From a virus, in the IMG/VR virus record IMGVR_UViG_3300025115_000003, positions 21,694 to 85,693 of that record: a stretch of 64,000 bases of DNA; one strand, 5' to 3'. A program made the position numbers and the translations under genes. A model generated the notes under the pieces. It was not told the DNA's origin, made no database searches, and was given only the letters and a program-made list of their open reading frames with translations. Each line of letters begins with the position of its first letter. Position 1 is the first letter of the stretch. Positions 2,610 through 64,000 of this stretch are shown one piece after another.

Positions 2610-2662
2610 TGGGAAGTAAGATAACTTATTAAATAACAAAATGATTTTAAATTGATACAAAA

Positions 2663-3095: not shown

Positions 3096-3096
3096 T

Positions 3097-3686: not shown

Positions 3687-3740
3687 TAGTATAAAATACT
3701 ATAATTATGCTAGAAGTATTTACTCGTAAAAATAAATAAC

Positions 3741-4034: not shown

Positions 4035-4039
4035 ATAAT

Positions 4040-4291: not shown

Positions 4292-4369
4292 ATGACATGG
4301 AATACAAAGTAACACCAGTAGAAGATAAAAGACCTATTGATTATTCAACTAAAGACTTAATAGATAAAT

Positions 4370-4609
4370 ATGAGAATCATACGCACCTCTTTAAATAATG
4401 TACTTTCTTTAATTTCTTGTGCAGTAGATTATGGATTTGATGATATTATATTGTTTGAAGCACTTGCTGATATGTTAGATAATAATCTTAGTGATCAGGA
4501 GATAGAAGTATATGCCAAACATATAGAATCTTTAGAAGGATATAGTAAAAAAGACTATAAAGAGATTAAAGATAGATTGATTGATTTTAGAAATAATTAT
4601 TGTAAATAA
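4370..4609 (+). CDS. hypothetical protein (79 aa; may extend to the ATG at 4297 via a frameshift)
   Basis: ORF; an upstream out-of-frame ORF (4297-4398) fills the gap. Confidence 0.6.
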   Translation: MRIIRTSLNNVLSLISCAVDYGFDDIILFEALADMLDNNLSDQEIEVYAKHIESLEGYSKKDYKEIKDRLIDFRNNYCK

Positions 4610-4622
4610 TTTAATTTGATTT

Positions 4623-6056
4623 ATGAAATTAATACCTGTTAATAGTACTAATCTAAAAGAAGATCAGAGATTATTAGTTGAAGATATAACTAAATTCTTT
4701 GAATCCAAAAAGTTATCTTATACTATATCAGGATTTGCTGGAACAGGTAAATCTTTTGTAGTTAAATATATTATAGATAACTTATTATCTGGAAACAAAG
4801 TAGCTGTAACTGCACCTACTCACAAAGCTGTTAGAGTAATTGAAAAGTTTACTGGTAAATCTGGTCATACTCTACATAGTTTACATGGTCTTAGACCTAA
4901 TTTTAGTCTTGATGAATTTAGTATTGATTCTTTTACTTTTGAATCTATTGGTAATGTTAAATTTGATCAATATGAAGTAATATTCATAGACGAAGCCAGT
5001 ATGATAAATGAAGATTTAAAGAAATTAAATGATATTAGATCGAAAGATTATGATACTCGAATTGTATATATGGGTGATCCTTATCAATTACCTCCAGTTA
5101 AAGAACATGAACCTTCTAAAATATTTACTAAAGTAGATAATTATTATAATCTTACTGAAGTAATTAGACAAGATAAAAGCAATCCATTACTTGAACTGTT
5201 TGATATGCTTAGGGAAGATATTGGAAATGATACTGCTAATTTTATAAATCATATTAAAAAACATAGGCAAGCAGTAGTTACTGGGGGATATATAGTACTT
5301 AGTGGAAAAGATTTCTTTTTAAAAGCAGTAGATCATTTTTTAAGTGAAGAGTTTAAAAAGAATGTAAATTATTGTAGAATTGGTACATATACTAATGACA
5401 GTATAGCTGAATGGAATAAAGCTATAAGAAGTAGAATATTTCCAAATGCACCGTTGATTGTAAAAGATGATGTATTAACAGCTTATAAAACCATTGTTGA
5501 TGATAACAATGCTACAGTCATTACTAATTCTACTGATTACAGAGTAATGGATGTAATATGGAGATTAAATGATGATGGTTTTTATAGTTATCATTTAAAA
5601 GTATTAGATTTAGATGTTAATAAAATGATATTTATCTCTATTGCAGATCATACAAATCCAACTTTTAAAGTTTATTATGATAAATTAAATAAATTACATA
5701 GATTAGCTTATCATGCTGGTAAACATGAGAGGGCTGTAAAATATAAAGAATATTTTAAATATAAAGATAAATATCTTTGTATGGTAGATTTTACTTTAAA
5801 AGATGCAGGTTCTCATTATGATAGAGGTTGGGTTAAAAAGGAAATAGATTATGGCTATGCTATATCTATTCATAAATCACAAGGTAGTACTTTTGAAAAT
5901 ATATTTATTGATGCTCGTAATATATGTTATATGAAAAGTAATGCTAATTTACCAAGAATTAATTCACAAAATAATCCTTATGCTATTTCATTAAGAAATA
6001 GATTATTGTATACAGGATTAAGTAGAGCAAGTAATATTGTTTATATATTTATATAA
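4623..6056 (+). CDS. SF1B DNA helicase (RecD/Dda-like)
   Basis: Walker A GFAGTGKS, APTHKA, IDEASM, GDPYQLPP, HKSQGS, LYTGLSRA. Confidence 0.92.
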   Translation: MKLIPVNSTNLKEDQRLLVEDITKFFESKKLSYTISGFAGTGKSFVVKYIIDNLLSGNKVAVTAPTHKAVRVIEKFTGKSGHTLHSLHGLRPNFSLDEFSIDSFTFESIGNVKFDQYEVIFIDEASMINEDLKKLNDIRSKDYDTRIVYMGDPYQLPPVKEHEPSKIFTKVDNYYNLTEVIRQDKSNPLLELFDMLREDIGNDTANFINHIKKHRQAVVTGGYIVLSGKDFFLKAVDHFLSEEFKKNVNYCRIGTYTNDSIAEWNKAIRSRIFPNAPLIVKDDVLTAYKTIVDDNNATVITNSTDYRVMDVIWRLNDDGFYSYHLKVLDLDVNKMIFISIADHTNPTFKVYYDKLNKLHRLAYHAGKHERAVKYKEYFKYKDKYLCMVDFTLKDAGSHYDRGWVKKEIDYGYAISIHKSQGSTFENIFIDARNICYMKSNANLPRINSQNNPYAISLRNRLLYTGLSRASNIVYIFI

Positions 6057-6057
6057 T

Positions 6058-6285
6058 ATGGAATCAACATTAAAAGATAAAATTAAAAAGATTACAGAAG
6101 ATCATTTAACTGATGATGAAGTTAATGAGATTTGTAAATTAGCTAAAGATACAGCTATTAGATTTGATCATTTTGCTACTATGTCATATGTATCTATTAT
6201 TGATAAATATAGAGCTAATGGTAAAAAGTATACAATAGAAGAATTATTTGATGTTTTTGTAAATACTAAAAAAGATGAAGGATAG
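6058..6285 (+). CDS. hypothetical protein (start likely MESTLK)
   Basis: The ATG directly follows the helicase stop. Confidence 0.65.
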   Translation: MESTLKDKIKKITEDHLTDDEVNEICKLAKDTAIRFDHFATMSYVSIIDKYRANGKKYTIEELFDVFVNTKKDEG

Positions 6286-6832
6286 AGTAGTAATTCATAA
6301 TTGTTATAAATGTGACATATCTTTAACAAGAAGAAAGATTGTTAATGGAAGAGGTCCAAATACTTCTAAAGTTATGATAATAGGTGAAGCACCTGGAGCA
6401 GAAGAAGATAAAACTGGAATACCTTTTATAGGTAAATCTGGAGTTATGCTAAGAGCCTTACTAAGATCGTTAATGATAGAACCTAAAAATGTTTATATTA
6501 CTAATGTAATTAAATGTAGGACTTTGAACAATAGAATACCTTCTGAAATAGAATGTATGAATTGTCTTCCTTATTTATTAGCAGAAATAGTATTAGTTAA
6601 TCCTACAGTAATTGTATTGTTAGGTAATACAGCTTTACAAACTTTCTTTCCTGATCCTTATTCTACTATTACTAAACAAAGAGGTATTCTTAAGGTAATA
6701 GGTAATAGAATATTTCTTCCGACATATCATCCTTCTTATGTATTAAGAAATAGGAATGATATGGGTATTGCAACTGAATTTTGGAATGATTTAACTTTAT
6801 TACAAACTCTTATGCAATTAATATATAAATAA
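6275..6832 (+). CDS. uracil-DNA glycosylase, family 4 (Fe-S)
   Basis: CxxC, GEAPG, PFIGKSG, TNVIKC, HPSY motifs. Confidence 0.92.
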   Translation: MKDRVVIHNCYKCDISLTRRKIVNGRGPNTSKVMIIGEAPGAEEDKTGIPFIGKSGVMLRALLRSLMIEPKNVYITNVIKCRTLNNRIPSEIECMNCLPYLLAEIVLVNPTVIVLLGNTALQTFFPDPYSTITKQRGILKVIGNRIFLPTYHPSYVLRNRNDMGIATEFWNDLTLLQTLMQLIYK

Positions 6833-7143
6833 TGACTAAAGTAATAGATAAAGGATTAACCCCTGAAGCTATAGAAGTTTTAAAAAATTATAGAAGAGAA
6901 GATCATCCTTATGTAACATGGTATTTAATTACTGGTTATTCTATTGATTTATATAGATATGTCCATGAGGATAATTCTATGTTAATTGAAGTAATCGAAG
7001 GAATTATTCCTTTAGAAGATACAATAGAGGTTTATCGTTCTCTTGCTTATTCTTTGTTCTTTAGTTATAATTCAAATTATAATTGGAAAATAGATTTAGT
7101 ATATGATGATAATGTGAGCTTTGATGATTTAATACTTAATTAA
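6832..7143 (+). CDS. hypothetical protein (103 aa)
   Basis: TAATG-coupled ORF. Confidence 0.7.
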   Translation: MTKVIDKGLTPEAIEVLKNYRREDHPYVTWYLITGYSIDLYRYVHEDNSMLIEVIEGIIPLEDTIEVYRSLAYSLFFSYNSNYNWKIDLVYDDNVSFDDLILN

Positions 7144-7144
7144 T

Positions 7145-9268
7145 ATGGCTAATTATATATTTGATGTTGAATGTATTCCTAATTTATTTTCTGTTATTTT
7201 TATTAAATCTGGTCAAACAGCTTTGATTAAAGATCACATCGAAGCCGATATAAAAGGATTAACTAATGAAATGAATACTATTTTAAATAAAATACGAAAA
7301 GAAGTATTTGTTATATTTTGGCAAGATGAGAATCACATGATAAACGATTTAGACAGATTATATAATTGGGTAACTAATAAAGGAACAGATAAAGAAAGAA
7401 TCTTTATAGGTTATAATAGTCAGAATTATGATAATATAATGATAGATTATATTATTACTCACTATAAGACTCTAAAGAAGATGCACTTAGCTGATATGCT
7501 CATTAAATTAAAAGAAATAAATGATTATATCATAGATTCCCAACAGATGTTTTTTGATATTAGGACAGAATTAGAATTAAATAAAAAGAGTTATTATTAT
7601 GCTGTAGATTTACAAAGTTTGAATAATTTACATAAGATTTCAAATAGAGTAAGTTTAAAGCAAGCAAGTATATCTTTAAAATGGTATAAACTTGAAGATT
7701 ATGAAATGCCCCCATATACAGATCAACAAGTAGAAGATTTATACGGATGGGATGTTACAGCAGAAGAAGTTAACTCTTTAAATAGTTTTAGTAGAAAAGT
7801 ACATTATTCTGAATTAAATCATTTAATATCTTATAACTATAATGATGTATTTATAACCAATGCTTTATTTGAAGCAAGCTTTGATGAATTATCCTCAAGA
7901 GTTGCAGCTTATAGTAAGTATGGTATGTATATGTATAGTTCTCCAAGAAGTGGTGTAGCTGAAAAAGTTATTAGGCATTTATATGCTCAATATACTGGTT
8001 TAGAATATAGAGATTTTGTTAATCAAAGAACTTGGAGAAAGATAATTAATTTTTCTGATATAGTAACTTCCAATGTATCTTTTAAAACTGTTAAGATGCA
8101 AGAGTTTTTAAAAGAAATAAAGAGGTTTTCTATTAATCCTTATGATCCTAAATCTAAAATGAAATTAAGTATCAACTTAAATGATAAACTGTATATCATG
8201 GGAGTTGGAGGATTACATTCTAAAGATTTAGGGGGAGTATTTAAATCAACAGAAAATTACATTATATTAGATGTTGATGCTGATTCATATTATCCTAAAA
8301 CAATAGTAAATAATAAATTTAAACCTGCTCATTTATCTGTAGTAATATTAACCATTATTAAAACTTTATTAGACGAGAGATTATATTACAAAAGGATTAA
8401 AGATAAAATAAATGCAAGTATACAGAAAATTGTAATAAATGCTATATTTGGTAAGATGGGAGATGCCGATAGTATTATGAAAGATGATCTTGCCATGTAT
8501 GCAGTTACAGTTAATAATCAATTATATTTGCTAATGTTGATTGAAGATTTTATATTAGCAGGAATTGAACCCATTAGTGCTAATACGGATGGTATTACTT
8601 GCAAAGTTAAAGTAGATCAGGTTGAAATTTATAATAAAACTATAAATAATTGGTGTAACAGATTAGGATTTACAGTAGAAGTGAATAGGTATGATCTTTA
8701 TGTTCGTACTTCAGTTAATGACTATTTAGCTAAAATTAATAATAACGGTAAGATAGAAATTAAAAGAAAAGGTGATTTTGATAAAGAGAAGTATAAAGAA
8801 TTAAGTTCGGGTTATTCTTATCCGATAGTACCAACTGCTATTGAAGAATATTACTTGAATGGTATTCCAATTAGACAAACTTTATATGAAGCAACAGATA
8901 TTTTAGATTTTTGTTTATCGGTTAAAACTGGTAAGAATTTTAAGAATGAATTTCACTATATAGATAAAACTACAGGTGAATTAGCTATTAAACCTCTAAC
9001 AAAACATTTAAGATATTATGCTTCTACATCAGGAGGAACTTTACTTAAAAGGAATTTAGAAACAAATGCTTTAACTAATATATTAAGTGGGCAAAATGTT
9101 ACTATTCTCAATAAGTTACTCCCTATTACTGATATTAGAGATTATAATATAAATTATAATTTTTATATTAGTAAATGTCAAGATATGATAGATAAAATAA
9201 ATAACAGTCAAACAAAAACTATGAAAAAACATAGTGGAACATTATTTGATAATTTAGACGATGAGTGA
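7145..9268 (+). CDS. polB: DNA polymerase family B with 3'-5' exonuclease
   Basis: ExoI FDVE, ExoII YNSQNYD, ExoIII YNYNDV; motif A DADSYYP, motif B KIVINAIFGK, motif C NTDG. Confidence 0.92.
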   Translation: MANYIFDVECIPNLFSVIFIKSGQTALIKDHIEADIKGLTNEMNTILNKIRKEVFVIFWQDENHMINDLDRLYNWVTNKGTDKERIFIGYNSQNYDNIMIDYIITHYKTLKKMHLADMLIKLKEINDYIIDSQQMFFDIRTELELNKKSYYYAVDLQSLNNLHKISNRVSLKQASISLKWYKLEDYEMPPYTDQQVEDLYGWDVTAEEVNSLNSFSRKVHYSELNHLISYNYNDVFITNALFEASFDELSSRVAAYSKYGMYMYSSPRSGVAEKVIRHLYAQYTGLEYRDFVNQRTWRKIINFSDIVTSNVSFKTVKMQEFLKEIKRFSINPYDPKSKMKLSINLNDKLYIMGVGGLHSKDLGGVFKSTENYIILDVDADSYYPKTIVNNKFKPAHLSVVILTIIKTLLDERLYYKRIKDKINASIQKIVINAIFGKMGDADSIMKDDLAMYAVTVNNQLYLLMLIEDFILAGIEPISANTDGITCKVKVDQVEIYNKTINNWCNRLGFTVEVNRYDLYVRTSVNDYLAKINNNGKIEIKRKGDFDKEKYKELSSGYSYPIVPTAIEEYYLNGIPIRQTLYEATDILDFCLSVKTGKNFKNEFHYIDKTTGELAIKPLTKHLRYYASTSGGTLLKRNLETNALTNILSGQNVTILNKLLPITDIRDYNINYNFYISKCQDMIDKINNSQTKTMKKHSGTLFDNLDDE

Positions 9269-54466: not shown

Positions 54467-54931
54467 TTAATTAAAATGTAGTGAAGCCAAAGTCAAAACA
54501 TTTGTTCCTGCTGATTTAGTTTCAAATATATGCCCACATTCTTTGAAGTGAGTATCCACTGCCGGCAAACCTGAACCTGAATTATTTATACCTATTGCTC
54601 TACCATCATCATCTGCTGCTATAAGTATCTGCCCCGTTGCACAAGCAGTAGAATCTTTCAGTAATACTTGACAAATAGAACCAGTTACCCACATCCACAT
54701 TTCAGCATCATCAGCAACTCCCGATTCAGCACAAATTCCAATAGTATCGTACTCATTATCCTGTGGGATAACTTTATTATCTTCTGTCTGTGATATTGCT
54801 AAAAGCATTCCTTTTACACTCGTTGCTTTTGTTCCATTAACAACTTTAACAAGAAAGCCTCTTTCGTTTGTTACTGGATCGCTGCCTATTGCAGACATTC
54901 CATCACCTGTTGTTATTACTTGCAATGCCAT
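54467..54931 (-). CDS. small virion fibre/cement-like protein (154 aa)
   Basis: IGICAESGVADDAEMWMWVTG beta-clip-like pattern; higher GC than flanks. Confidence 0.55.
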   Translation of the reverse strand: MALQVITTGDGMSAIGSDPVTNERGFLVKVVNGTKATSVKGMLLAISQTEDNKVIPQDNEYDTIGICAESGVADDAEMWMWVTGSICQVLLKDSTACATGQILIAADDDGRAIGINNSGSGLPAVDTHFKECGHIFETKSAGTNVLTLASLHFN

Positions 54932-57492
54932 TAGGGAGTTATTATTTGTTTAGTTACCCAACTACTTGATTCTCTTCTTTGAACTATTAGATTATTTCCG
55001 TTTCTACCTTGCCTATATGTTCCATCTATATTAGGCAATCCCCAATATATCCAACCATCATCAGATAATACTTTATTATATTCACCTCCTGCAAGATAGT
55101 GCATATACGTAGGAATTAAAGGAGAAGCTGCACCAAAAGTTAAACTTACATCGTATAGATGAAATTCAGCAGCACCATTTGTATATAACTGAAGCCTTGT
55201 TTGTTGACCAGCTTCTAAATATACAGTTACTCCATCCCAAGTCAATTCGCTATCACTCTCCATGCGAACTACTCCATATTGACCTTCTATCCAAGATGAA
55301 CCATTATAAATATCTATTCTTGAACCAACCTCTGCTCCACCTGTAGTATTTCTACCGATTACAGCTAAAGAATAATATCCATCAAAAGGAACTTCTATTG
55401 ATTCAAAAAATAGATAATTAAGCCCAGAAGCAGCAGAAAATACTGCTATATGACCATGTAATCCTCCTGAACCTAAAGCTAAACTATATCCAAAATTTAA
55501 AGATGTATCTATTTCATCCCTAAGATTACCATTTTTCATAAAATTTAAACTACTTATAAATCCATGAGAACCAGCTTTAGGATGGGAAGTAGTTATCATT
55601 GGTGTACTCGATGCTAAACTCAAAGGCATATATGTAATAAAACTATCATCTGCTTGAATATTCATAAATACACCAAGATTGTATATTCTAATATTCTTTA
55701 ATGTAGAATCAAAACCTATGCCTTTATCTATATAAGTACCACCTTCAAAAATAAAACTAACATCTTTTACATTAGCATCTGATATTATAATAGGTAAAGT
55801 TGCATCTGGAAAGAAATCACAACCTACAAATGTAACCGATTGTGCTACACCTGTACCATATACTAAAATAGGAGTTATTTCAGGTACTATATTATATCCA
55901 AATTTACAACCTATAAATATATTTTGGTTAAATTCACTTAATCTTCTAAGATTAGGATCATCATTCCAAGTACCTAATTTAAGAATCCATTGACCTATTG
56001 TACAATTAGACCATTTATTATTATATTGGGTATCAAATGTACCAAGTGGTTCTAAATCAGGAGTAGTTAATCCAGTAGTTAAAGTTTTAAAGAAACAATC
56101 ATTGAAACTGGATTCCATTAATCCTACTATAAGAAAATCACCCTCTGTTTGGATTTGCTTAAAATGTAATCTTTTACAAGCATTAACTTCAATTAAAATA
56201 GGAGTAGAGTTAGTAGTAATAAATCTTGCACCATTACCATCTACAATTAAAGAACTTGCTGTAAAGGTAGTATCTGATGGATTTCCAGATAATACATTTT
56301 TATTACTTATTGTAACTTTACTATTTAAAACATAATTAACTCCCCTTAGAGTTAATACTCCTCTGGTTATATAAGCAAAGAAACTATTAAAAGCAGATGA
56401 ATCATCTGTTACTCCATCACCTCTTGCTCCAAAAAATTCAGGAAATATTCTTTTATCTACTCTTTTGTACCTATCTCCAGATGCAGATACTATAGTCATT
56501 ATTCCATCATCAGCAGTAGAAGTATCTCCTGGATCAAATTCAAAATCTCCTTCTAATCCATTGTTTGAAATAAATATAGCAGGATTTTGCAAAGATATAT
56601 CTGTATTAGCTATTGCTCTAACTTCCGAAATAGTCTTAGATATAACTACTTTATTAGTAGCTTTAGCATAATAATAAGGATCGAGTTCTTCAATTAAATC
56701 ACTAAATAATTGTTTATATAATTTACCATTTACTTCTCTTACAATTCCTCCTATATCTACTTTATGATCAAAACCTAATAGATTAAGTACTCGTAGATCA
56801 CCAAGTATAATAATACCTGTATCATCTGTTACAGGATTAGTTTCAGTAAAAATTTCATATATGTTAAATAGATGATCTATATCATATATGTCTGCACCTA
56901 ATTCTATAGTATAATCATAAGCTAAACTAAATCCATCCGAAGATACTAATGCTGGAGCAACAGTTATACTATCTTCATCTTTCCAAGAAGTAACTCTTTT
57001 GGCAATACCTTGTCCTAATAATTTATCTAATTCATTTCTCCATTTAGGTATATTGGAATCAATAGTTAATATTTGATTCTCATCTCCTTTCGGAAGTCTT
57101 GTTAAATTTCCGCTTGCATTTCTATAGTATATATCTCCAACTGCATCACTACCTAACTCAATACCGCCTGCTATGTGTAAATCTTTTATTTTCTTTGCTA
57201 TTGTACCTAAATCATAAGCATTGTTTGAAGCAGGTTCTAAAGCACTCTCTCTAAGAGTTAATCTTAATACATTATTGACTTCATATTCTGCATAACCATT
57301 AACGCCTGCAAATACTTCAAGTTTGGTATTACCACTTATTATATAAGAACGATCTCCAATTACTTTTGCTAATTCATACAAGTTAATTCTAATGGATTTA
57401 TCAGAACCAATTCTACCAATAGCAACAAAATCATTCTGATCTTGAATATCAGAATGAGTTAAGGTAATTTCAGCATCTATAATTTTTGTCAT
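54931..57492 (-). CDS. tail spike / depolymerase with pectate-lyase-like beta-helix (853 aa)
   Basis: GDFEFDPGDTSTADDG spike head; PEFFGARGDGVTDDSSAF beta-helix cap; C-terminal beta-sandwich. Confidence 0.8.
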   Translation of the reverse strand: MTKIIDAEITLTHSDIQDQNDFVAIGRIGSDKSIRINLYELAKVIGDRSYIISGNTKLEVFAGVNGYAEYEVNNVLRLTLRESALEPASNNAYDLGTIAKKIKDLHIAGGIELGSDAVGDIYYRNASGNLTRLPKGDENQILTIDSNIPKWRNELDKLLGQGIAKRVTSWKDEDSITVAPALVSSDGFSLAYDYTIELGADIYDIDHLFNIYEIFTETNPVTDDTGIIILGDLRVLNLLGFDHKVDIGGIVREVNGKLYKQLFSDLIEELDPYYYAKATNKVVISKTISEVRAIANTDISLQNPAIFISNNGLEGDFEFDPGDTSTADDGIMTIVSASGDRYKRVDKRIFPEFFGARGDGVTDDSSAFNSFFAYITRGVLTLRGVNYVLNSKVTISNKNVLSGNPSDTTFTASSLIVDGNGARFITTNSTPILIEVNACKRLHFKQIQTEGDFLIVGLMESSFNDCFFKTLTTGLTTPDLEPLGTFDTQYNNKWSNCTIGQWILKLGTWNDDPNLRRLSEFNQNIFIGCKFGYNIVPEITPILVYGTGVAQSVTFVGCDFFPDATLPIIISDANVKDVSFIFEGGTYIDKGIGFDSTLKNIRIYNLGVFMNIQADDSFITYMPLSLASSTPMITTSHPKAGSHGFISSLNFMKNGNLRDEIDTSLNFGYSLALGSGGLHGHIAVFSAASGLNYLFFESIEVPFDGYYSLAVIGRNTTGGAEVGSRIDIYNGSSWIEGQYGVVRMESDSELTWDGVTVYLEAGQQTRLQLYTNGAAEFHLYDVSLTFGAASPLIPTYMHYLAGGEYNKVLSDDGWIYWGLPNIDGTYRQGRNGNNLIVQRRESSSWVTKQIITP

Positions 57493-58181
57493 TCTGTATA
57501 ATAAGGATTAAATTCTACAGTTTTATGATAATTATAATCTACAATAAAAGTTCTTAGTATTTTACTTATTTCACTTCTTGTATCCGAATCTATATTTATT
57601 ACAGAATTTCTTGCTATTTTTTTGTATTTTTCCCAAGCTAAAGCTGGATTAGTAAATTCATTATTATCCTTTAAAGAGAAATTAGGAACTAAGTGTCCTC
57701 TTTCTAATAACCTTTTAAGTATATACCAATCTAAAGCAGTTAATACATCTTCATTATCAGGTATTAAAGGAAAATATAATTTTAAATTAGCATCTAATTC
57801 AATAGGTAAAACTTTAATATAAATTCTAACATCTCCTGTTTCAAATGTAGTAATAATATAACCATTAGATAATTCATATTTTGCATAAGGATGGTATATT
57901 TCAGCATTAATAGCAGGAATAGCAGTATTTATACCTTCAATTCTATCTAATCTCCAACCTTCATATTCAACTGCCATTAACTCTTTAGTTTGAGGTGGAA
58001 TAATACATTTATAATCTACTACTGAATCCTCAACTACAGCATCTTGTAGAGCTACAAATAAATCTAATTCCCCCATTCCTTGATGAATCCAATTAGGAAC
58101 TCTTGATATAAAACCAGAGTAATCAATATTAAATCTATCAAATACTCTGGCTATACAAACTTTAGAAGATATAGTCAACAT
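57489..58181 (-). CDS. tail ring / tubular protein (230 aa)
   Basis: GYIITTFETG...PLIPD...ALDWYI; crAss ring-protein-like, conserved position. Confidence 0.7.
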   Translation of the reverse strand: MLTISSKVCIARVFDRFNIDYSGFISRVPNWIHQGMGELDLFVALQDAVVEDSVVDYKCIIPPQTKELMAVEYEGWRLDRIEGINTAIPAINAEIYHPYAKYELSNGYIITTFETGDVRIYIKVLPIELDANLKLYFPLIPDNEDVLTALDWYILKRLLERGHLVPNFSLKDNNEFTNPALAWEKYKKIARNSVINIDSDTRSEISKILRTFIVDYNYHKTVEFNPYYTE

Positions 58182-59060: not shown

Positions 59061-60005
59061 TTAATATGGATATAATTCAAAAGTTCGTGTACAATAATAT
59101 TCATCAACTCTTTCCAAAGCTAATATCTTATCTCTTAACCCTAATTCATCTGTTTCAATTATTTGCTCTACTGTTCCATTTTGATTAGTAAAATCTATCT
59201 GACTACGAGTAGAATTTCTAACAAGATTAGTAGGTACAATATTATATAAATGACTATTTGGATTATTACAATATCTATGGTGTAAATCTACCCAATAACT
59301 ATATTCTTTATCTAAATAAATATGCCATTTAATATTATACTTACTCATAGAATTAATAAATGAATCCCTTGATATAAGTTTAGCTTCATATTTTTTAAGT
59401 AAACTTGGGTCTAATTCAGCAGCCTTTTCTTTTAAATATTTTAAGGATGCTCCCCAATCTACTTTCTTAATTCCTAAGTTAGGTTTATTCTTTTTAATAG
59501 TAGGCTTTCTTACAATTTTAATAGTAAATTGAGGAATAAGTCTACCATAATTTTCACCAGCTAATATACTCTTTTGTACATTATTAAAATAACACTTAAG
59601 TACAAATTTAATGCTATCTTCATCTATGTTTTCAAATTGAGTATAATATTCTAATCTTTCTTTAGCTACTTGTAGTTGTTTATACAAATTAACAACCTCT
59701 AATACATAAGTTACTACTAAAGAACTTTTGATTTTAACAAAATCGTATGATTTATTAGCATTATTCTTATCTATATCTTTAAGTATAGATTCAGGAATTT
59801 GCATTTTAGAAGCATCTTGTTTTAGAATTATATGTATTAATTCAGTAATATACAAATCACTTGAATAATCTAATACTTTAATTCTTAACGCATTAATGTT
59901 ATTCGATAAGCTATCAATTACTGACTTATTAGTATCTATTTCAGACCTAACATTCTGTATAAAACTTGATACTACTGCATCTACAAATTCTTTATTAGCT
60001 GGCAT
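59061..60005 (-). CDS. structural-module protein with IHF/HU-like C-terminal region (314 aa)
   Basis: Coiled coil followed by ILAGENYG..FTIKIVRK..VDWGAS; lies between ring genes. Confidence 0.5.
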   Translation of the reverse strand: MPANKEFVDAVVSSFIQNVRSEIDTNKSVIDSLSNNINALRIKVLDYSSDLYITELIHIILKQDASKMQIPESILKDIDKNNANKSYDFVKIKSSLVVTYVLEVVNLYKQLQVAKERLEYYTQFENIDEDSIKFVLKCYFNNVQKSILAGENYGRLIPQFTIKIVRKPTIKKNKPNLGIKKVDWGASLKYLKEKAAELDPSLLKKYEAKLISRDSFINSMSKYNIKWHIYLDKEYSYWVDLHHRYCNNPNSHLYNIVPTNLVRNSTRSQIDFTNQNGTVEQIIETDELGLRDKILALERVDEYYCTRTFELYPY

Positions 60006-60011
60006 ATGTTT

Positions 60012-60731
60012 TTAATTATTGTCTAAATGAGGACTTATAATTTTATCTTTATCGTCAGTTAATGATAATTCAGTAGCTAATAACTTTTCTTTAACTAATT
60101 GAATTATATCGTCTGGCATAGGAAAATCTACTGTATCTAAATAAGTAATACCTGCTTGTTTAGCATCCAATGATTCATCTTGAATAAAATCATAAGACGA
60201 ATGAACTCCTTCTACCATTATATCAATAGAAGTTAGAGGTTCATCTTCATCTATTTCATTAGGTACATAATATACATAAATATAACCATTTAGATAATCA
60301 TATGTAGGAGGAGTAACTAATGATTCCTCTTCATCTACTTGGTATGCTTTTTGTACTGCCGGTAAAAGTTTATAATACTCTAAAGCAGCAGTATTTATAA
60401 AAGTAAATGGTATTTGACCATTAATAGACCCTACATAAGTAAAAGGATCATCAGTTATATATCGAACTGGTTTAGCTACTTTATTTATAGTTCTAAAACA
60501 GTTACCTACTATTTCATCATTTAAACTTGAATCAGCTATATTAACTCTCTTACAAGTAATAGAATATCTTGTCTTAAATTGAGAGTCTATCCCATGCTTA
60601 TTTATTTGTTGTCTTATATATACAGCTAATTCTTGTTTATATATTGCTTTAACTCTCTCTTTTAACATATCGTCAAAAGGTCTATTGAGAGATAAGGCAA
60701 TTTGATCTGCTATTTGTTTTAATGTAGCCAT
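60012..60731 (-). CDS. tail ring protein (239 aa)
   Basis: MATLKQIA start, YLNGYIYVY, FPMPDDII; crAss ring-like. Confidence 0.7.
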   Translation of the reverse strand: MATLKQIADQIALSLNRPFDDMLKERVKAIYKQELAVYIRQQINKHGIDSQFKTRYSITCKRVNIADSSLNDEIVGNCFRTINKVAKPVRYITDDPFTYVGSINGQIPFTFINTAALEYYKLLPAVQKAYQVDEEESLVTPPTYDYLNGYIYVYYVPNEIDEDEPLTSIDIMVEGVHSSYDFIQDESLDAKQAGITYLDTVDFPMPDDIIQLVKEKLLATELSLTDDKDKIISPHLDNN

Positions 60732-60734
60732 ATA

Positions 60735-61064
60735 TTAATTGTTTACATCGTATATATTACTGAGTCTATCTTCTACATTATTGGGTTTAGCTACTGTTTT
60801 AAAATTATGATCTATCTGCTTTAAAACTTTATTAAAATTATCTTTTTTAACAACTTGCTCGTAATTATTTTTTAATTCAGTACATTTAGTATTTAAACTA
60901 TTTATATCTTCTTTCACTTTAGTTGAAAATACAATAATCCAAAAAACAGAACTTATAATAATAGGCAATAAAGTAGAAATGGCAGTATTAATAGTAAATT
61001 TATTATCCTGCTTTTGCATAGATAATACCAATTTTTCTAAATTTTCATATTGTTCTTTTGTCAT
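60735..61064 (-). CDS. single-TM coiled-coil protein, holin-like candidate (109 aa)
   Basis: TM segment LLPIIISSVFWIIVF followed by a coiled coil. Confidence 0.5.
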   Translation of the reverse strand: MTKEQYENLEKLVLSMQKQDNKFTINTAISTLLPIIISSVFWIIVFSTKVKEDINSLNTKCTELKNNYEQVVKKDNFNKVLKQIDHNFKTVAKPNNVEDRLSNIYDVNN

Positions 61065-61500
61065 TTCTCATTTCATTTATTATTTCTTCTATTCTATATA
61101 ACTGATCTGTAATATCAGTAGCTTTCTCAAATTTCAATGTTTTTCCATTTATTTCTTTAAGTACATATATTATATAAAATACTTTATTTAGCTTATTATT
61201 ATAATGTACCCAAGTATAAGGTTTGTTTAAAGTTAAATCCTTATTTACACAAAAATCACATTTATCAAATATTCCTTGTAAGGCTATGTAACATTTCTGT
61301 CCAATTACACTTCCGACTTGTTTTTCCAAAACATCATTTATGTATAAGATTTCATCATTGGATATATCTACAACATAAACAAAGTTTCTGTTATTATTTA
61401 AACTTATTTTAAGTATTTCATTTTCATCTGATATATTAGAAGTAGATATATAAATATCTTTAATTAATTCTCTTAAGTCAAGATATAATCGTTTGCTCAT
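61045..61500 (-). CDS. stand-alone PAS domain protein with C-x10-C-x2-C motif (151 aa)
   Basis: VYVVDISNDEILYIN...IGQKCYIALQG..KCDFC...ATDIT, PAS_4-like with the terminal DIT motif. Confidence 0.8.
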   Translation of the reverse strand: MSKRLYLDLRELIKDIYISTSNISDENEILKISLNNNRNFVYVVDISNDEILYINDVLEKQVGSVIGQKCYIALQGIFDKCDFCVNKDLTLNKPYTWVHYNNKLNKVFYIIYVLKEINGKTLKFEKATDITDQLYRIEEIINEMRNDKRTI

Positions 61501-61508
61501 ATTGTATT

Positions 61509-61655
61509 CTATGGGTTTATCACTATTATTTCATCTTTTAGTACAAAAGCATAAGGCTGTGCAACTCCGTTAATTTCATTTATAGCCCAACCCTGCCCAT
61601 GAACAGGGTTATCAGACACTTTATCAAGCTTCTTGTTCAAACTCAACCAAATCAT
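61509..61655 (-). pseudogene. 48-aa ORF / gene remnant at the cassette junction (MIWLSLNKKLDKVSDNPVHGQGWAINEINGVAQPYAFVLKDEIIVINP)
   Basis: Open frame fills the gap and ends with TAG 8 nt before the PAS gene; coincides with the GC transition. Confidence 0.45.
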
Positions 61656-61809
61656 GTTCAATCATGTAAGACCTAAGTGTTTCAATGCTATCAAAGCCTA
61701 TTAGTTCACACGGTGTACCGTGTTCACTTTCGTAGATCACATTTTGAAGTATCTCAACTTCATTACCTTGCACTACTTTCAGTGCGAATGGATATATTTC
61801 TCTTATCAT
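61624..61809 (-). CDS. small fibre-associated protein (61 aa)
   Basis: ATGA-coupled to the LRR gene; same elevated GC. Confidence 0.65.
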   Translation of the reverse strand: MIREIYPFALKVVQGNEVEILQNVIYESEHGTPCELIGFDSIETLRSYMIEHDLVEFEQEA

Positions 61810-63947
61810 ATGTTTGTCGTGTTAAGGGTGAATGTTGTAACACCCTTTGTTGATTTGATACTGTTAATTAGGTACTTAGCTTGTTCAGCATCAGTTCCGA
61901 ATTCGTCTGCTGTTGCTGCTGCTATTGCTGTAACATTAGCTGCTATCTGTTCTCTGATTATTACCGTTGCTGGCAGCGATGTACCTGTGTTGTTTAGTAC
62001 GCTGTTTAATAAGGGTATCAAGTCAACGTAGTCCATAGTGTTACTTCCAGCGCGGTAATCTAATAATTGTAAAGTCGTCATGTTTGGCTTTGGGCTTCCT
62101 GTATTTCCTAATATATTACCTGTCCAGTTGATGCTATTGCTTTCTAACCACAAGACAGTCAATCCCGTTGGCAATGCCCCTGTATATGTCCAGTTGATAT
62201 TACCATACAAAAGCAAGTAAGTTAATCCAGTAGGCATCGCACCAGTATATGTCCAGTTGATATTGCTACCTTCCAAATACAATAAAGTCAATCCCGTTGG
62301 CAATGCACCAGTGTGAGTCCAGTTGATGTTACTACCTACCAAACGCAAGAAGGTCAACCCCGTTGGCAATGCCCCTGTATATGTCCAGTGAATGTTACTA
62401 CCTTCCAAACGCAAGAAGGTCAATCCCGTTGGCAATGCTTTATTACCAGTTGTCGGTAGTGCTGTTGCTAACGCCGTTACTTGTCTGATTTTCTGCGTCA
62501 AAGCAGGCAAGTTGTTCAGATTCCAGCTAACAATAGGCATAGTTGCATCCGTGCCAGTGTAAAAAACAATAGTAGGATAGTTTATGCCATTATGATTTCC
62601 AAAACTCCTAATCCTATCAGCCCTCTTTATCACAAGTGTTCCTGATTGGTTATTGGGGCAGGATATTACAACAGTATGTTGTCTAAGCTGTACACCATCA
62701 AACAAAGCATCATTAATCACTGTTGTGCTTACAATCACAGCGCTTCCAGTAGCTTCAACTGTTAAATCAGCCGTAGCTGAAAATGTAATTGTACCCTCTG
62801 TGGGTGTTCCACTTGTTCTTCCTGATACAGGTAACACTAAATCCCATATAGGAATATTAGTAGTATTAAGTTGGAAAGTTGTTACTCCTTTACCTCCATC
62901 TATCACAGGTAATTGTATTCTATTAATTAAAAATCTACATTGTTCAGCTTGTGAACCAAATTCATCTGGGATTGCATTAAGAATGGCTGTTACATTCCCT
63001 ACTATCTGTTCTCTGATTGTTACTGTTGTTGGCAAAGTACCAACATTGTTAATCAGACTATTAAGTATTGAAATAAGGTCAGCGTAGTCCATTGTGTCGG
63101 AAGGAGTGCGGTAGTTAAACAGTGATATATTACTCATATTAGCCTTAGGTGTGCCTGTATTTCCTAAAATGTTACCTGTCCAGTTGATATTGCCGCCTGA
63201 CAAATACAAGTAAGTCAATTCTGTAGGTATCGCACCAGTGTAAGTCCAATTGATGTTGTGGCCTGACAAAATCAAGAAAGTCAATCCCGTAGGCAATGCT
63301 CCAGTGTAAGTCCAATTGATGTTATTACCCCACAAAAGCAAGAAAGTCAATCCCGTAGGCAATGCCCCTGTATATGTCCAGTTGATGTTGCTGCTTTCCA
63401 TGTACAAGTAAGTCAATCCTGTAGGTATCGCACCAGTGTATGTCCAATTTATGTTATTACCTGACAAACGTAAATAAGTCAATCCAGTAGGCATCGCTCT
63501 ATTACCAGTTGTCGGTAGTGCTGTTGCTAACTCCACTGTTTGTCTGATTTTCTGCGTCAAAACAGGTAAGTCATTCCAATTCCAACTAACAATCGGCATA
63601 GTTGCATCCGTGCCAGCGTAAAAGTTAACCGACGGGGTACTCGCTCCATTATGATTACCAAACGCTCTTATTCGATCTGAACGCCTGATAATTAACGTGC
63701 CTGATTGGTTGTTTGGGCAACTGATTACAACGGTATGCACCCGAAGCTGAACGCCGTCAAATAAAGCATCATTAGCCCTTGTTGTGCTTACAATTACAAC
63801 ACTTCCAGTCTTTTCAACGGTTAAATCTGCTGTTGATGTAAATGTAATTGTGCCATTTGTCGGAGTGCCTGATGTGCGACCTGATACGGGTAACACTAAA
63901 TCAGCACGACCAATTGTAAATTTGCTATTGCTTATATATCTGTTCAT
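61806..63947 (-). CDS. putative receptor-binding/fibre protein made of two duplicated modules, each with five leucine-rich repeats (713 aa)
   Basis: 22-aa repeat GALPTGLTxLxLxxxNINWTYT x10; module period about 1059 bp; located in the tail gene block. Confidence 0.75.
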   Translation of the reverse strand: MNRYISNSKFTIGRADLVLPVSGRTSGTPTNGTITFTSTADLTVEKTGSVVIVSTTRANDALFDGVQLRVHTVVISCPNNQSGTLIIRRSDRIRAFGNHNGASTPSVNFYAGTDATMPIVSWNWNDLPVLTQKIRQTVELATALPTTGNRAMPTGLTYLRLSGNNINWTYTGAIPTGLTYLYMESSNINWTYTGALPTGLTFLLLWGNNINWTYTGALPTGLTFLILSGHNINWTYTGAIPTELTYLYLSGGNINWTGNILGNTGTPKANMSNISLFNYRTPSDTMDYADLISILNSLINNVGTLPTTVTIREQIVGNVTAILNAIPDEFGSQAEQCRFLINRIQLPVIDGGKGVTTFQLNTTNIPIWDLVLPVSGRTSGTPTEGTITFSATADLTVEATGSAVIVSTTVINDALFDGVQLRQHTVVISCPNNQSGTLVIKRADRIRSFGNHNGINYPTIVFYTGTDATMPIVSWNLNNLPALTQKIRQVTALATALPTTGNKALPTGLTFLRLEGSNIHWTYTGALPTGLTFLRLVGSNINWTHTGALPTGLTLLYLEGSNINWTYTGAMPTGLTYLLLYGNINWTYTGALPTGLTVLWLESNSINWTGNILGNTGSPKPNMTTLQLLDYRAGSNTMDYVDLIPLLNSVLNNTGTSLPATVIIREQIAANVTAIAAATADEFGTDAEQAKYLINSIKSTKGVTTFTLNTTNI
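62120..62445 (-). repeat. 66-bp tandem repeat array 2 (5 LRR units, one 63 bp)
   Basis: Recurrent GTCCAGTTGAT...AGTCAATCCCGTTGGCAATGC. Confidence 0.85.
63175..63505 (-). repeat. 66-bp tandem repeat array 1 (5 LRR units)
   Basis: Recurrent GTCCAATTGATGTT...AGTCAATCCCGTAGGCAATGC. Confidence 0.85.
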
Positions 63948-64000
63948 TGTATGCTGAAATTAGTAAATGGAAACTCATTGCCATTTTCCGCCTGAAATGT
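63944..64000 (-). CDS. 3' end of an upstream gene (…TFQAENGNEFPFTNFSIQ*), truncated by the window edge
   Basis: Open frame ending in an ATGA overlap with the LRR gene. Confidence 0.55.
   Translation of the reverse strand, partial: TFQAENGNEFPFTNFSIQ

What the first reader, a model, noticed from the sequence alone, without database searches (positions are those of the whole stretch)
60735..61500. Stand-alone Cys-motif PAS sensor gene coupled to a holin-like membrane gene inside the virion operon
Seen: a 151-aa ORF with a recognisable PAS fold (VYVVD...ILYIN, IGQKCY, terminal DIT) and three Cys in C-x10-C-x2-C. It has no kinase, cyclase or DNA-binding output domain, and it overlaps (61045-61064) a 109-aa single-TM coiled-coil gene among late tail genes. 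Known: PAS domains sense redox, metals, gases or small ligands, and this Cys-motif type is normally the input module of bacterial histidine kinases or GGDEF proteins, not a phage late gene. Inference: the pair could be a sensor-gated lysis module (PAS acting as an antiholin that reads host redox or metal state) or a decoy that jams a host two-component system. I know of no characterised system like this.
Basis: partly seen in the sequence, partly recalled or inferred. Interest (0 to 1): 0.8.

Follow-up and report, generated by a model that had tools for sequence, protein, structure and literature searches.

The report
Phage PAS sensor with membrane partner
A crAss-like phage carries a genuine bacterial-type PAS sensor domain with no output, always encoded with a small one-helix membrane protein; in related phages the pair sits beside the cell-bursting genes, so it may let the phage time lysis to the host's internal state, but this is untested.

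Summary
The window belongs to an 85.7-kb crAss-like phage. The 151-aa ORF (61045-61500, minus) folds as a PAS domain (AlphaFold pLDDT 84; best solved match Z 11.7). It belongs to a large bacterial sensor-PAS subfamily defined by C-x10/11-C-x2-C, present in all 155 best profile hits, mostly multi-PAS histidine kinases.

It has no output domain. It overlaps by 20 nt a 109-aa bitopic coiled-coil membrane gene, directly upstream of tail Ring protein 2.

The new result is that the pair is a conserved, mobile phage module. In 8 of 8 viral contigs with a stand-alone homologue (PAS identity 21-54%, crAss-like podoviruses and a myovirus) a homologous membrane gene follows within -20 to +3 nt. Four loci add a CheY-like receiver upstream, and the same four lie within 3 kb of endolysin or holin-like genes.

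Best reading (about 0.4): a sensor-gated membrane or lysis-timing module, analogous to phiKZ gp142/gp143 or T4 T/RIII. No binding, cofactor or lysis activity is shown. This phage's copy has Tyr at a near-invariant Asp (residue 112).

The scan noted a similar PAS-plus-membrane pair on other DNA before (e1-5947396).

The parts
61045..61500 (-). Gene for the 151-aa stand-alone Cys3-PAS protein (stop codon 61045-61047)
   Evidence: ORF; AlphaFold model; PAS matches; profile hits to PAS regions of histidine kinases
61399..61500 (-). N-terminal helical cap (residues 1-34; helices 3-18 and 24-34, low confidence)
   Evidence: secondary structure, with pLDDT 51-63 in this part; it aligns with the N-cap of short-LOV proteins
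61114..61386 (-). PAS core (residues 39-129): strands 39-45, 50-54, 95-101, 106-117 and 120-129
   Evidence: pLDDT >90 over most of it, Z 10-11.7 to PAS domains
61249..61293 (-). Cys70-x10-Cys81-x2-Cys84 motif. Cys70 starts a short helix; the CxxC lies in a loop (residues 74-94) where a canonical PAS domain has its F-alpha helix
   Evidence: Invariant in 28 stand-alone homologues. Same columns are Cys in 191-199 of 203 bacterial domain copies. Motif present in 155 of 155 PAS hits
61165..61167 (-). Tyr112 codon (TAT) at a position that is Asp in nearly all relatives
   Evidence: Asp in 29 of 31 stand-alone copies and 138 of 167 aligned bacterial copies. Asp in all five close homologues. Codon read
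61066..61110 (-). C-terminal helix (residues 131-145) after the conserved D-I-T, in the position of a J-alpha helix
   Evidence: aligned with the YtvA and PpSB1-LOV C-terminal helices
61045..61064 (-). 20-nt overlap of the PAS stop region with the start of the membrane gene (translational coupling inferred)
   Evidence: In seven other loci the junction is between -11 and +3 nt
60735..61064 (-). Gene for the 109-aa bitopic coiled-coil membrane protein, the conserved partner of the PAS gene
   Evidence: homologues and alignment; all-helical model; single copy in the phage
60930..60980 (-). Predicted transmembrane helix (residues ~29-45)
   Evidence: Hydropathy scan. It is the only credible TM ORF on the late (minus) strand among ORFs of 45-259 aa
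60801..60812 (-). Conserved C-terminal D-[HY]-N-F motif (residues 85-88; Asn87 invariant)
   Evidence: Alignments
60012..60731 (-). Tail Ring protein 2 gene, directly downstream (context, not part of the module)
   Evidence: PF25702, 5e-12. Orthologue of p-crAssphage KP06_gp52

Best explanation
The two genes form a conserved, horizontally mobile phage accessory module. The module is a cytoplasmic, output-less PAS sensor of the bacterial Cys3 subfamily, made together with a small bitopic membrane protein.

Shown: the fold, the family, the retained sensor signature, the conserved gene pairing across phage types, the late-operon position, and the frequent neighbourhood of lysis genes and a CheY-like receiver.

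Inferred: the membrane protein has its short N-terminal helix in the cytoplasm, one TM helix, and a periplasmic coiled coil ending in D-[HY]-N-F. The PAS protein binds a cofactor or metal through its three cysteines (Fe-S or Zn), so that it reads host redox, metal or sulfur state. It then acts on the cytoplasmic part of the membrane protein, through its own N- and C-terminal helices, to advance or delay a membrane event at the end of infection. That event is most likely holin-type triggering of lysis.

This would work like the cytoplasmic regulators phiKZ gp143 and T4 RIII acting on one-TM holins. Where a receiver gene is present, host phosphorylation state would be a second input.
For: PAS fold.

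Same subfamily as sensor domains of histidine kinases and GGDEF proteins: 4718 profile hits at E<=1e-3 and 875 at E<=1e-10; architectures.

All signature columns (Asn55, Gly67, Cys70, Cys81, Cys84, Asn101, Gly119, Glu125, Ala127, D-I-T) are kept in 31 stand-alone copies as in 203 bacterial copies. The pocket is therefore under sensor-like constraint.

The pair is conserved in 8 of 8 viral loci at 21-54% PAS identity, with junctions from -20 to +3 nt. These comprise the three crAss-like phages in the set (window, L007, L010), a sheath-bearing myovirus (L016) and four other contigs of unassigned type.

Lysis context: PHROG endolysins lie 1-3 genes away in L006, L008 and L009. L009 reads REC-PAS-TM-3TM-endolysin-N-TM-lipoprotein-like. 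L016 has 2-TM proteins, DUF5675 and GH16 nearby, and DUF5675 is proposed as a C82-like lysin (bioRxiv 10.64898/2026.04.11.717860). L010 has a 3-TM gene directly upstream of PAS.

In this phage the 109-aa protein is the only credible small TM protein on the late strand, and no gap separates the pair from the flanking late genes.

Precedents: a cytoplasmic regulator acting on the N-terminal cytoplasmic part of a one-TM holin (PMC12894885; PMC8385771 and PMC12162936); three-Cys Fe-S clusters in a PAS domain (NreB, PMC13478379).
Against: No experiment or computation here shows binding, a cofactor, membrane permeabilisation or any effect on lysis.

The membrane protein matches no holin, antiholin or spanin family.

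In this phage and in L007 and L010 the pair sits next to tail ring genes, not next to an endolysin. The only lysin candidate found (DUF5675, L002:14583-15053) is about 17 kb away across the contig ends.

L006, L009 and L010 have separate multi-TM holin-like genes, so the one-TM protein need not be the holin.

Topology is only weakly indicated: 33 versus 22 Lys+Arg in the N and C flanks over 11 sequences.

The window's own PAS has Tyr at near-invariant Asp112, so this particular copy may sense differently or not at all.

The link to lysis genes rests on four loci and could reflect a shared hotspot for accessory genes.
Confidence: 0.4

Rival explanations
1. Interference with host signalling. The PAS protein, and in some phages the receiver, are captured pieces of host two-component proteins. 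They pair with or titrate the host's own Cys3-PAS kinases or their phosphate flow, and the membrane protein only holds them at the membrane where those kinases sit.
For: The nearest relatives are PAS domains inside multi-PAS and hybrid histidine kinases at E down to 1e-31. PAS domains commonly dimerise, and the model resembles dimeric short-LOV and YtvA architectures. Four loci add an intact single-domain receiver but no kinase. The phage itself has no kinase ATPase domain, so any phosphate must come from the host.
Against: A decoy would not need a dedicated, strictly co-inherited membrane partner with a conserved periplasmic-side motif. It would also not need to keep every ligand-pocket signature residue. 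Late-operon expression is an odd time for host takeover. No host target is known.
Confidence: 0.2
2. A sensor-controlled envelope function other than holin triggering. Examples are superinfection exclusion, an i-spanin-like or FtsB/FtsL-like periplasmic coiled-coil scaffold, or control of a secreted glycanase (GH16).
For: The architecture, one TM helix followed by a coiled coil, is shared with i-spanins and FtsB/FtsL-type proteins (Atlas structure rows). A lipoprotein-like 179-aa gene follows the membrane gene in L008, and a 200-aa gene that looks similar by eye follows it in L006. GH16 genes lie beside the module in L006, L008 and L016.
Against: The TM helix is preceded by 24-39 cytoplasmic residues, unlike typical i-spanins. 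L009 has its own spanin-like pair. No lipoprotein gene follows the pair in the window, L007 or L010. Nothing links PAS to exclusion.
Confidence: 0.15
3. Virion or assembly components. The membrane-like helix is a hydrophobic segment of an ejected or tail-associated protein, and the PAS fold is used as a structural or chaperone domain for tail assembly.
For: In the three crAss-like loci the pair lies between fibre genes and Ring protein 2, with no intergenic space. Another crAss-like phage (cr127_1) also has small TM proteins in the same slot.
Against: The same pair occurs in a myovirus and in non-crAss contigs away from ring genes, next to receiver and lysis genes. A structural role does not explain retention of the complete sensor signature and the three Cys. 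p-crAssphage gp53, in the same slot, is not related (hhalign probability 0.7%).
Confidence: 0.1
4. In this particular phage the sensor is crippled: the Asp112-to-Tyr change has made the PAS protein ligand-blind or constitutive, and the module is decaying or fixed in one state.
For: Tyr at a position that is Asp in 29 of 31 stand-alone and 138 of 167 aligned bacterial copies, and in all five close homologues.
Against: The rest of the protein is intact, with all three Cys and the other signature residues. The identical protein is recorded on two contigs. His99, invariant in this clade, could take over a ligand role.
Confidence: 0.1

Closest known systems
phiKZ gp142 (class III holin) with gp143 (cytoplasmic lysis regulator), Sci Rep 2026, PMC12894885
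   Same: A small one-TM membrane protein is encoded next to a soluble cytoplasmic protein with no signal sequence. That regulator is proposed to bind the holin's N-terminal cytoplasmic part and shift triggering time. Both genes lie in the late/lysis context.
   Different: No sequence or fold relation was found or tested. gp143 is not reported as a PAS domain. gp142 has a long (~75-aa) cytoplasmic domain, whereas this protein has ~25 aa. In this phage the pair is not inside a lysis cassette, and no function has been tested.
T4 holin T with antiholins RI (periplasmic) and RIII (cytoplasmic), PMC8385771 and PMC12162936
   Same: A one-TM holin, N-in and C-out, has a short cytoplasmic N-terminus and a larger periplasmic domain. 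It is regulated by a small cytoplasmic protein and couples lysis timing to a sensed signal.
   Different: T, RI and RIII are unrelated in sequence to these proteins. The T4 signal is superinfection, sensed in the periplasm. Here the sensor is a cytoplasmic cofactor-type PAS domain.
Cys3-PAS input domains of bacterial multi-PAS histidine kinases and PAS-GAF-GGDEF proteins (recognised in part as Pfam PAS_8/PAS_4)
   Same: Same subfamily by profile search (E to 1e-31), with the same C-x10/11-C-x2-C motif and the same conserved columns.
   Different: The phage protein is the domain alone, with N- and C-terminal helices, and is paired with a membrane protein instead of being fused to a kinase or cyclase. 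The ligand of the subfamily is itself unknown, and no solved structure was found by sequence.
Short LOV proteins (PpSB1-LOV, PpSB2-LOV) and YtvA LOV
   Same: Best structural matches. They are output-less PAS cores flanked by an N-cap and a J-alpha helix that mediate dimerisation and signalling.
   Different: The flavin-binding GxNCRFLQ signature is absent; the sequence reads GQKCYIALQ. The F-alpha helix region is replaced by a CxxC loop, so the protein is not a LOV photoreceptor.
NreB PAS domains with Fe-S clusters (B. licheniformis CX2CX11C [2Fe-2S], PMC13478379; S. carnosus CX2CX11CX2C [4Fe-4S])
   Same: A PAS domain whose sensing cofactor is held by three or four Cys with CxxC and ~11-residue spacing. 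This shows that three Cys suffice for a cluster in a PAS pocket.
   Different: The motif order is reversed here (C-x10-C-x2-C). No sequence relation was detected. The cofactor of the phage protein is untested; Zn is equally possible.
VqmA(Phage) of vibriophage VP882 (PMC8284805)
   Same: A phage-encoded PAS-domain receptor that lets a phage decide when to kill its host.
   Different: VqmA(Phage) is PAS fused to an HTH DNA-binding output. It acts on transcription in a temperate phage and binds the autoinducer DPO. Here there is no DNA-binding domain, the partner is a membrane protein, and nothing found here suggests lysogeny.

Membership tests
PAS domain superfamily | Five-stranded antiparallel beta-sheet (order 2-1-5-4-3) with intervening helices; structural similarity to solved PAS domains | tested here: met
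   AlphaFold model pLDDT 84 with strands 39-45, 50-54, 95-101, 106-117, 120-129. Foldseek E~1e-5, probability 1.0 to LOV/FixL. VIA-align Z 11.7/rmsd 3.4/109 aligned (3bwl) and Z>=9.7 for the 50 PAS entries shown. The strand order itself was not inspected because no coordinates were available.
PAS domain superfamily | Sequence-profile match to a curated PAS model above threshold | tested here: not met
   No Pfam PAS model reaches E<=1 on the phage protein and NCBIfam gives nothing significant. Indirect link only: its profile hits regions that Pfam calls PAS_8/PAS_4 in bacterial kinases.
Cys3-PAS sensor subfamily (bacterial kinase/GGDEF input domain) | C-x10/11-C-x2-C motif in the E-alpha/F-alpha region | tested here: met
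   Cys70, Cys81 and Cys84. The motif is in 155 of 155 PAS proteins among the top hits.
Cys3-PAS sensor subfamily (bacterial kinase/GGDEF input domain) | Other near-invariant columns (Asn55, Gly67, Asn101, Asp112, Gly119, Glu125, Ala127, D-I-T) | tested here: inconclusive
   All are present except Asp112, which is Tyr in the window's copy. Close homologues keep Asp.
Holin (any class) | Small protein with at least one TM helix and a charged C-terminal part, expressed late | tested here: met
   109 aa, one TM helix at ~29-45, charged coiled-coil tail, inside the late operon. These features are generic and not specific to holins.
Holin (any class) | Match to a known holin family | tested here: not met
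   No Pfam or PHROG holin family at E<=0.1. Homologues are all unnamed. The Atlas gives only unnamed viral clusters.
Holin (any class) | Encoded in a cassette with an endolysin | tested here: inconclusive
   Not in this phage: no CHAP-type or M15-type endolysin was found, and the DUF5675 candidate is about 17 kb away. In relatives L006, L008 and L009 an endolysin lies 1-3 genes away.
Holin (any class) | Lethal, energy-poison-triggerable membrane permeabilisation that releases endolysin | not testable with these tools
   Needs expression in cells.
Class III holin topology (T4 T, phiKZ gp142) | Single TM helix, N-in and C-out | tested here: inconclusive
   Lys+Arg within 15 residues of the TM helix: 33 on the N side versus 22 on the C side over 11 homologues. 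This is a weak bias only.
Cytoplasmic antiholin / lysis regulator (T4 RIII, phiKZ gp143) | Soluble cytoplasmic protein encoded beside a one-TM holin that binds its cytoplasmic part and shifts lysis time | not testable with these tools
   Only the positional part is met: no signal sequence or TM helix in the PAS protein, and an adjacent one-TM gene. Binding and timing need experiments.
Two-component system | Histidine kinase plus receiver | tested here: not met
   No HATPase_c and no receiver domain in the 85.7-kb phage record. Four relatives carry a receiver with the acidic pocket, phospho-acceptor Asp, Thr/Ser and Lys readable in sequence, but no kinase within the stretches read.
LOV photoreceptor | GxNCRFLQ flavin-adduct motif | tested here: not met
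   The sequence at the equivalent place reads GQKCYIALQ. The similarity is at fold level only, 15-21% identity.
NreB-type Fe-S PAS | CX2CX11C(X2C) motif and sequence relation to NreB | tested here: not met
   The motif order is reversed (C-x10-C-x2-C). The profile search of all PDB sequences at E<=1 gave no PAS chain. The motif definition is from PMC13478379.

The most novel reading that the evidence does not exclude
A mobile phage sensory cassette, (CheY-like receiver)-Cys3-PAS-bitopic membrane protein, lets virulent phages of at least two morphotypes gate lysis, or another terminal membrane event, on an intracellular redox, metal or Fe-S signal. This would be the first holin-type timer controlled by a cofactor-binding sensor domain. 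It would also assign a function to a very large, uncharacterised bacterial PAS subfamily.
Probability: 0.3. Interest if true: 0.85.

Novelty: new variant of a known kind. Interest (0 to 1): 0.65.

Why it matters
Lysis timing is usually described as a built-in clock, with only a few known inputs such as T4 superinfection or quorum-sensing receptors acting on transcription. A cytoplasmic cofactor-type sensor wired directly to a membrane protein would show that virulent phages, including crAss-like phages, read host physiology at the moment of exit.

The module is small: two genes, or three with the receiver. It is conserved across very divergent phages, so it is directly testable by expression in laboratory strains.

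It also isolates, as a 150-aa stand-alone protein, a Cys3-PAS domain found in thousands of bacterial kinases whose ligand is unknown. That makes it a convenient handle for finding the ligand.

If the link to lysis is wrong, the finding still documents a recurrent phage-borne signalling module with an unknown membrane output.

Tried and rejected
- **Complex prediction.** The PAS (A2) and membrane protein (A6) job gave no verdict: score 0.03 against a mark of 0.32, and controls were not run. It is neither support nor evidence against.
- The contigs of P0002-P0006, P0008 and the other stand-alone proteins could not be fetched. Context therefore comes only from IMG/VR and one metagenome contig.
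- **Direct family scans.** Pfam, PHROGs and NCBIfam gave nothing significant for either protein.
- **Locus searches that found nothing.** A1 in viral contigs and genome contigs; P0009 in viral contigs. Alignments A2 and A4 were too diverse to search with. Ring protein 2 (A9) brought back only L010's contig.
- **GenBank phages.** tblastn of four stand-alone PAS proteins against 50,697 records found only three or four 'Bacteriophage sp.' records, or nothing. The two read in detail (MT835688, MT838049) encode ordinary bacterial PAS-GGDEF proteins, MT835688 amid bacterial genes. No cultured phage with this module was found.
- **Solved structures.** The profile search of PDB sequences found no solved member.
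- **Cys clustering.** Whether the three Cys cluster in space could not be measured, because the structure tool returns no coordinates.
- **Membrane protein model.** pLDDT was only 67, so I did not use it for fold search.
- **p-crAssphage gp53.** This 108-aa protein occupies the same slot upstream of Ring protein 2, and I considered it a possible orthologue of the membrane protein. I rejected this: hhalign probability 0.7% and no TM helix.
- **Upstream small ORFs.** I considered the 61-aa and 50-aa ORFs as a broken receiver. I rejected this: the six-frame PF00072 search was empty.
- **Fused forms.** No fused PAS-TM form was seen among the 150 best hits; longer or shorter fused forms were not searched systematically.
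- **Co-divergence.** The correlation of pairwise identities between PAS and membrane protein is weak (Pearson 0.58, Spearman p 0.056) and is not used as evidence.
- **Literature.** Searches for PAS with crAss-like phages, PAS with antiholin, and phage-encoded PAS with response regulator found no description of this module.
Full report
**Where the finding lies**

The window is bases 21694-85693 of an 85.7-kb linear IMG/VR virus record, estimated 94% complete. The record is a crAss-like phage:
- Crass_capsid, E 1e-38, in the first 20 kb.
- Tail Ring protein 2 (PF25702, 5e-12) at 60012-60731.
- Ring protein 1 (PF24228, 1e-12) at 57489-58181.
- Giant 4546-aa and 2518-aa ORFs downstream.
- G+C about 27%.

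On the minus strand the late genes run as follows:

| Gene | Coordinates |
|---|---|
| LRR/FNIP-repeat protein | 61806-63947 |
| Two small overlapping ORFs | 61624-61809 and 61509-61661 |
| 151-aa ORF | 61045-61500 |
| 109-aa ORF | 60735-61064 |
| Ring protein 2 | 60012-60731 |
| 314-aa and 302-aa ORFs | between Ring 2 and Ring 1 |
| Ring protein 1 | 57489-58181 |
| 853-aa protein | 54931-57492 |

Gaps between these genes are 0-8 nt. A consensus scan found no terminator-like site on the minus strand in 59800-64000, and promoter-like sites were no more frequent than in shuffled sequence. The pair is therefore very likely co-transcribed with late tail genes (inference).

**The observation**

The 151-aa protein has Cys70, Cys81 and Cys84 (C-x10-C-x2-C). 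It ends in D-I-T followed by a helix, and it overlaps the start of the 109-aa gene by 20 nt.

Curated libraries do not recognise it. A profile of its five close homologues, searched against 1.84 billion representative proteins, gave 4718 hits at E<=1e-3 and 875 at E<=1e-10.

The long hits are multi-PAS histidine kinases and hybrid kinases. The matched stretch coincides there with Pfam PAS_8/PAS_4 calls. tblastn hits in GenBank 'phage' records turned out to be bacterial PAS-GAF-GGDEF proteins with the same GKKCYE...PCxxC signature.

An AlphaFold2 model built on 28 stand-alone homologues has pLDDT 84, above 90 over the core. It matches solved PAS domains:
- Foldseek gives YtvA-LOV, short-LOV and FixL at E~1e-5, probability 1.0.
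- VIA-align gives Z 11.7 (rmsd 3.4, 109 aligned) to 3bwl, and Z>=9.7 to all 50 PAS entries shown.

The architecture is an N-terminal helical cap, a PAS core and a C-terminal helix, as in output-less short-LOV proteins. The CxxC lies in a loop (residues 74-94) where a canonical PAS domain has its F-alpha helix.

**The Cys motif defines the family**

- The three Cys are invariant in 28 stand-alone homologues at 34% mean column identity.
- A C-x10/11-C-x2-C motif occurs in all 31 short and all 124 long proteins among the best hits.
- After re-aligning 234 domain copies, the same columns are conserved in stand-alone and bacterial copies: Asn55, Gly67, Cys70, Cys81, Cys84, Asn101, Asp112, Gly119, Glu125, Ala127 and D-I-T.

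The phage proteins therefore keep the full sensor signature rather than only the fold.

There is one exception. The window's own copy has Tyr112 (TAT), where 29 of 31 stand-alone copies, 138 of 167 aligned bacterial copies and all five close homologues have Asp. His99 is invariant only in the window's clade.

No solved structure of this subfamily exists by sequence, so the ligand is unknown. The NreB PAS domains show that three or four Cys with similar spacing can hold an Fe-S cluster in a PAS pocket (PMC13478379). Zn is equally possible. I could not measure Cys-Cys distances because no coordinates are returned.

**The pair is a conserved mobile module**

This is the main new result. Stand-alone members of 131-179 aa form at least 31 clusters at 50% identity among the top 150 hits. 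Their amino-acid composition is typical of A+T-rich genomes.

Eight loci could be read: the window plus seven contigs from IMG/VR and one metagenome. In every one the next gene downstream encodes a bitopic protein of one family.

That family has an N-terminal helix, one TM helix, a coiled coil of variable length and a conserved D-[HY]-N-F motif with an invariant Asn. The junction lies between -20 and +3 nt. PAS identities among these loci are only 21-54%.

| Locus | Gene order around the pair |
|---|---|
| Window, L007, L010 (crAss-like) | PAS, TM, Ring 2. L010 has a 3-TM gene just upstream of PAS |
| L011 | PAS, TM, then the contig ends |
| L006 | REC, PAS, TM, 200 aa, GH16, 3-TM, endolysin, further genes, then a large ORF that looks by eye like a large terminase |
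| L008 | GH16, REC, PAS, TM, lipoprotein-like, further genes, M15-type endolysin |
| L009 | REC, PAS, TM, 3-TM, endolysin, N-TM, lipoprotein-like |
| L016 (myovirus with a tail sheath gene) | 2-TM proteins, DUF5675, GH16, 161 aa, REC, PAS, TM, 93 aa, sheath |

The receivers carry the acidic pocket, the phospho-acceptor Asp, the Thr/Ser and the Lys in readable sequence. They score as Response_reg at 5e-13 to 3e-11. No kinase lies in the stretches read.

The window's phage has no receiver and no kinase ATPase domain.

**What the membrane protein is**

It has no named relatives and no holin or spanin family match. The model is all-helical but of low confidence (pLDDT 67).

Positive charges slightly favour N-in: 33 versus 22 Lys+Arg over 11 homologues. 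That would leave only about 25 N-terminal residues in the cytoplasm, with the coiled coil and the conserved motif in the periplasm.

Among ORFs of 45-259 aa on the late strand of this phage, it is the only credible TM protein.

The phage's only lysin candidate is a DUF5675 protein at L002:14583-15053. A 2026 preprint proposes this family as a C82-like peptidase lysin. It lies upstream of the terminase genes, not next to the pair.

In another crAss-like phage that lacks the PAS gene (cr127_1), the slot upstream of Ring 2 holds a 3-TM protein and an N-TM protein. In p-crAssphage the same slot holds an unrelated 108-aa coiled-coil protein without a TM helix.

**Most likely mechanism and its rivals**

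| Reading | Confidence |
|---|---|
| Sensor-gated membrane module, most likely lysis timing | about 0.4 |
| Interference with host Cys3-PAS kinases | 0.2 |
| Another envelope function | 0.15 |
| Structural or assembly role | 0.1 |

I also give about 0.1 to the possibility that this particular copy is altered by Asp112Tyr; this is not exclusive of the readings above.

The evidence fits a sensor-gated membrane module best. A cytoplasmic Cys3-PAS protein reads a redox, metal or sulfur-type signal. Through its flanking helices it acts on the cytoplasmic end of the bitopic protein and so shifts a late membrane event, most probably holin-type lysis triggering.

The receiver, where present, would add a phosphorylation input taken from the host. 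Characterised analogues of the wiring are phiKZ gp143 acting on the one-TM holin gp142 (PMC12894885) and T4 RIII/RI acting on holin T (PMC8385771, PMC12162936).

What is shown:
- the fold and the family;
- the retained signature;
- the gene pairing and its mobility;
- the late position;
- proximity to lysis genes in four of eight loci.

What is inferred:
- the cofactor and the topology;
- binding between the two proteins;
- the lysis role.

For the host-interference rival, the receivers and the kinase origin speak for it. The dedicated partner and the retained pocket speak against it.

**Comparison and novelty**

The protein is a member of the PAS superfamily by fold and of the bacterial Cys3 sensor subfamily by profile and motif. 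It is not a LOV domain: there is no NCRFLQ motif. It is not an NreB-type domain: the motif order is reversed and no sequence relation was found.

The membrane protein is not a member of any known holin family. It only shares generic holin features.

Phage-encoded PAS receptors are known, for example VqmA(Phage), a PAS-HTH protein (PMC8284805). BFVD lists other PAS-only phage proteins, for example in Cellulophaga phages.

I found no description of a stand-alone PAS paired with a dedicated membrane protein in phages. No GenBank phage genome carries this family.

Earlier notes of this scan report a similar PAS-plus-membrane pair (e1-5947396), and kinase-receiver-membrane trios beside lysis genes in other phages (e1-5668698). 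These are unchecked leads. They agree with the pattern here but are not independent evidence. The first led me to the phiKZ paper, which I read.

I class the finding as a new variant of a known kind: regulated one-TM membrane or lysis proteins, here with a sensor domain as the regulator.

**Limits**

- The complex prediction returned no verdict.
- Topology and cofactor are untested.
- The lysis association rests on four loci.

Noticed in passing
window 61165-61167 (-): The window's PAS copy has Tyr112 (TAT) where nearly all relatives, phage and bacterial, have Asp. This is one base away from GAT. Asp112 could be the fourth ligand beside the three Cys.
   Followed up: partly
L006:5651-5998, L008:852-1184, L009:5658-5996, L016:3867-4211: Single-domain CheY-like receiver genes with intact phospho-acceptor residues sit directly upstream of the PAS gene in four phage contigs, with no kinase in view. 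In these four loci the PAS protein starts with Met-Cys-x-[ILV]-Thr-Asp, that is, it has an extra N-terminal Cys.
   Followed up: partly
L016 (IMGVR_UViG_3300026202_000024) 883-7738: The same REC-PAS-TM module occurs in a myovirus, just upstream of the tail sheath gene and downstream of 2-TM proteins, DUF5675 and GH16. The module therefore moves between phage morphotypes.
   Followed up: partly
L006:7507-8271, L008:165-851, L016:2474-3244: A GH16 glycoside hydrolase gene lies within two genes of the REC-PAS-TM module in three of the four receiver-containing loci. Its role, whether lysis, capsule or glucan degradation, is unknown.
   Followed up: no
L002:14583-15053 (-) of the same phage: A DUF5675 protein (2.8e-17) upstream of the terminase genes is the only lysin candidate found in this phage. 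No holin-like gene lies next to it.
   Followed up: partly
window 60012-60731 (-); L019 (BK010471.1) 5001-5705: The Ring protein 2 orthologue in p-crAssphage (KP06_gp52), like gp51, is still annotated as 'integration host factor IHF subunit histone-like protein'. The Pfam CrAss_Ring_2 match suggests that this annotation is outdated.
   Followed up: no
L020 (MT774393.1, cr127_1) 2049-2982: In a crAss-like phage without the PAS gene, the slot upstream of Ring protein 2 holds a 116-aa 3-TM protein and a 198-aa N-terminally anchored protein of unknown family. This slot may be where some crAss-like phages keep membrane or lysis genes.
   Followed up: no
window 61509-61809 (-): Two small ORFs (61 aa and 50 aa) overlap by 38 nt in different frames between the LRR gene and the PAS gene. 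They have no family match and are unlike the 71-97-aa gene found in this region in L006 and L007. They could be two genes or one frameshifted gene.
   Followed up: no
window 62001-64000: The LRR/FNIP-repeat gene region has about 41% G+C against about 27% for the rest of the phage. This suggests recent acquisition or repeat-driven composition. It is covered by another note of the scan (e1-6085604).
   Followed up: no
L004 (MT835688.1), L005 (MT838049.1): Two GenBank records labelled 'Bacteriophage sp.' look bacterial. MT835688 carries ORFs that read by eye as pyrimidine-biosynthesis enzymes, plus sigma-factor-like ORFs and a PAS-GAF-GGDEF protein (the last confirmed by Pfam). MT838049 encodes a GGDEF protein beside a 1125-aa ORF of bacterial signalling type. 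Neither looks like phage DNA.
   Followed up: partly
L006:6908-7510 and L008:1921-2460: A 179-200-aa beta-rich protein (lipoprotein-like in L008) follows the membrane partner in two loci. The two look homologous by eye. This could be a further member of the module.
   Followed up: no
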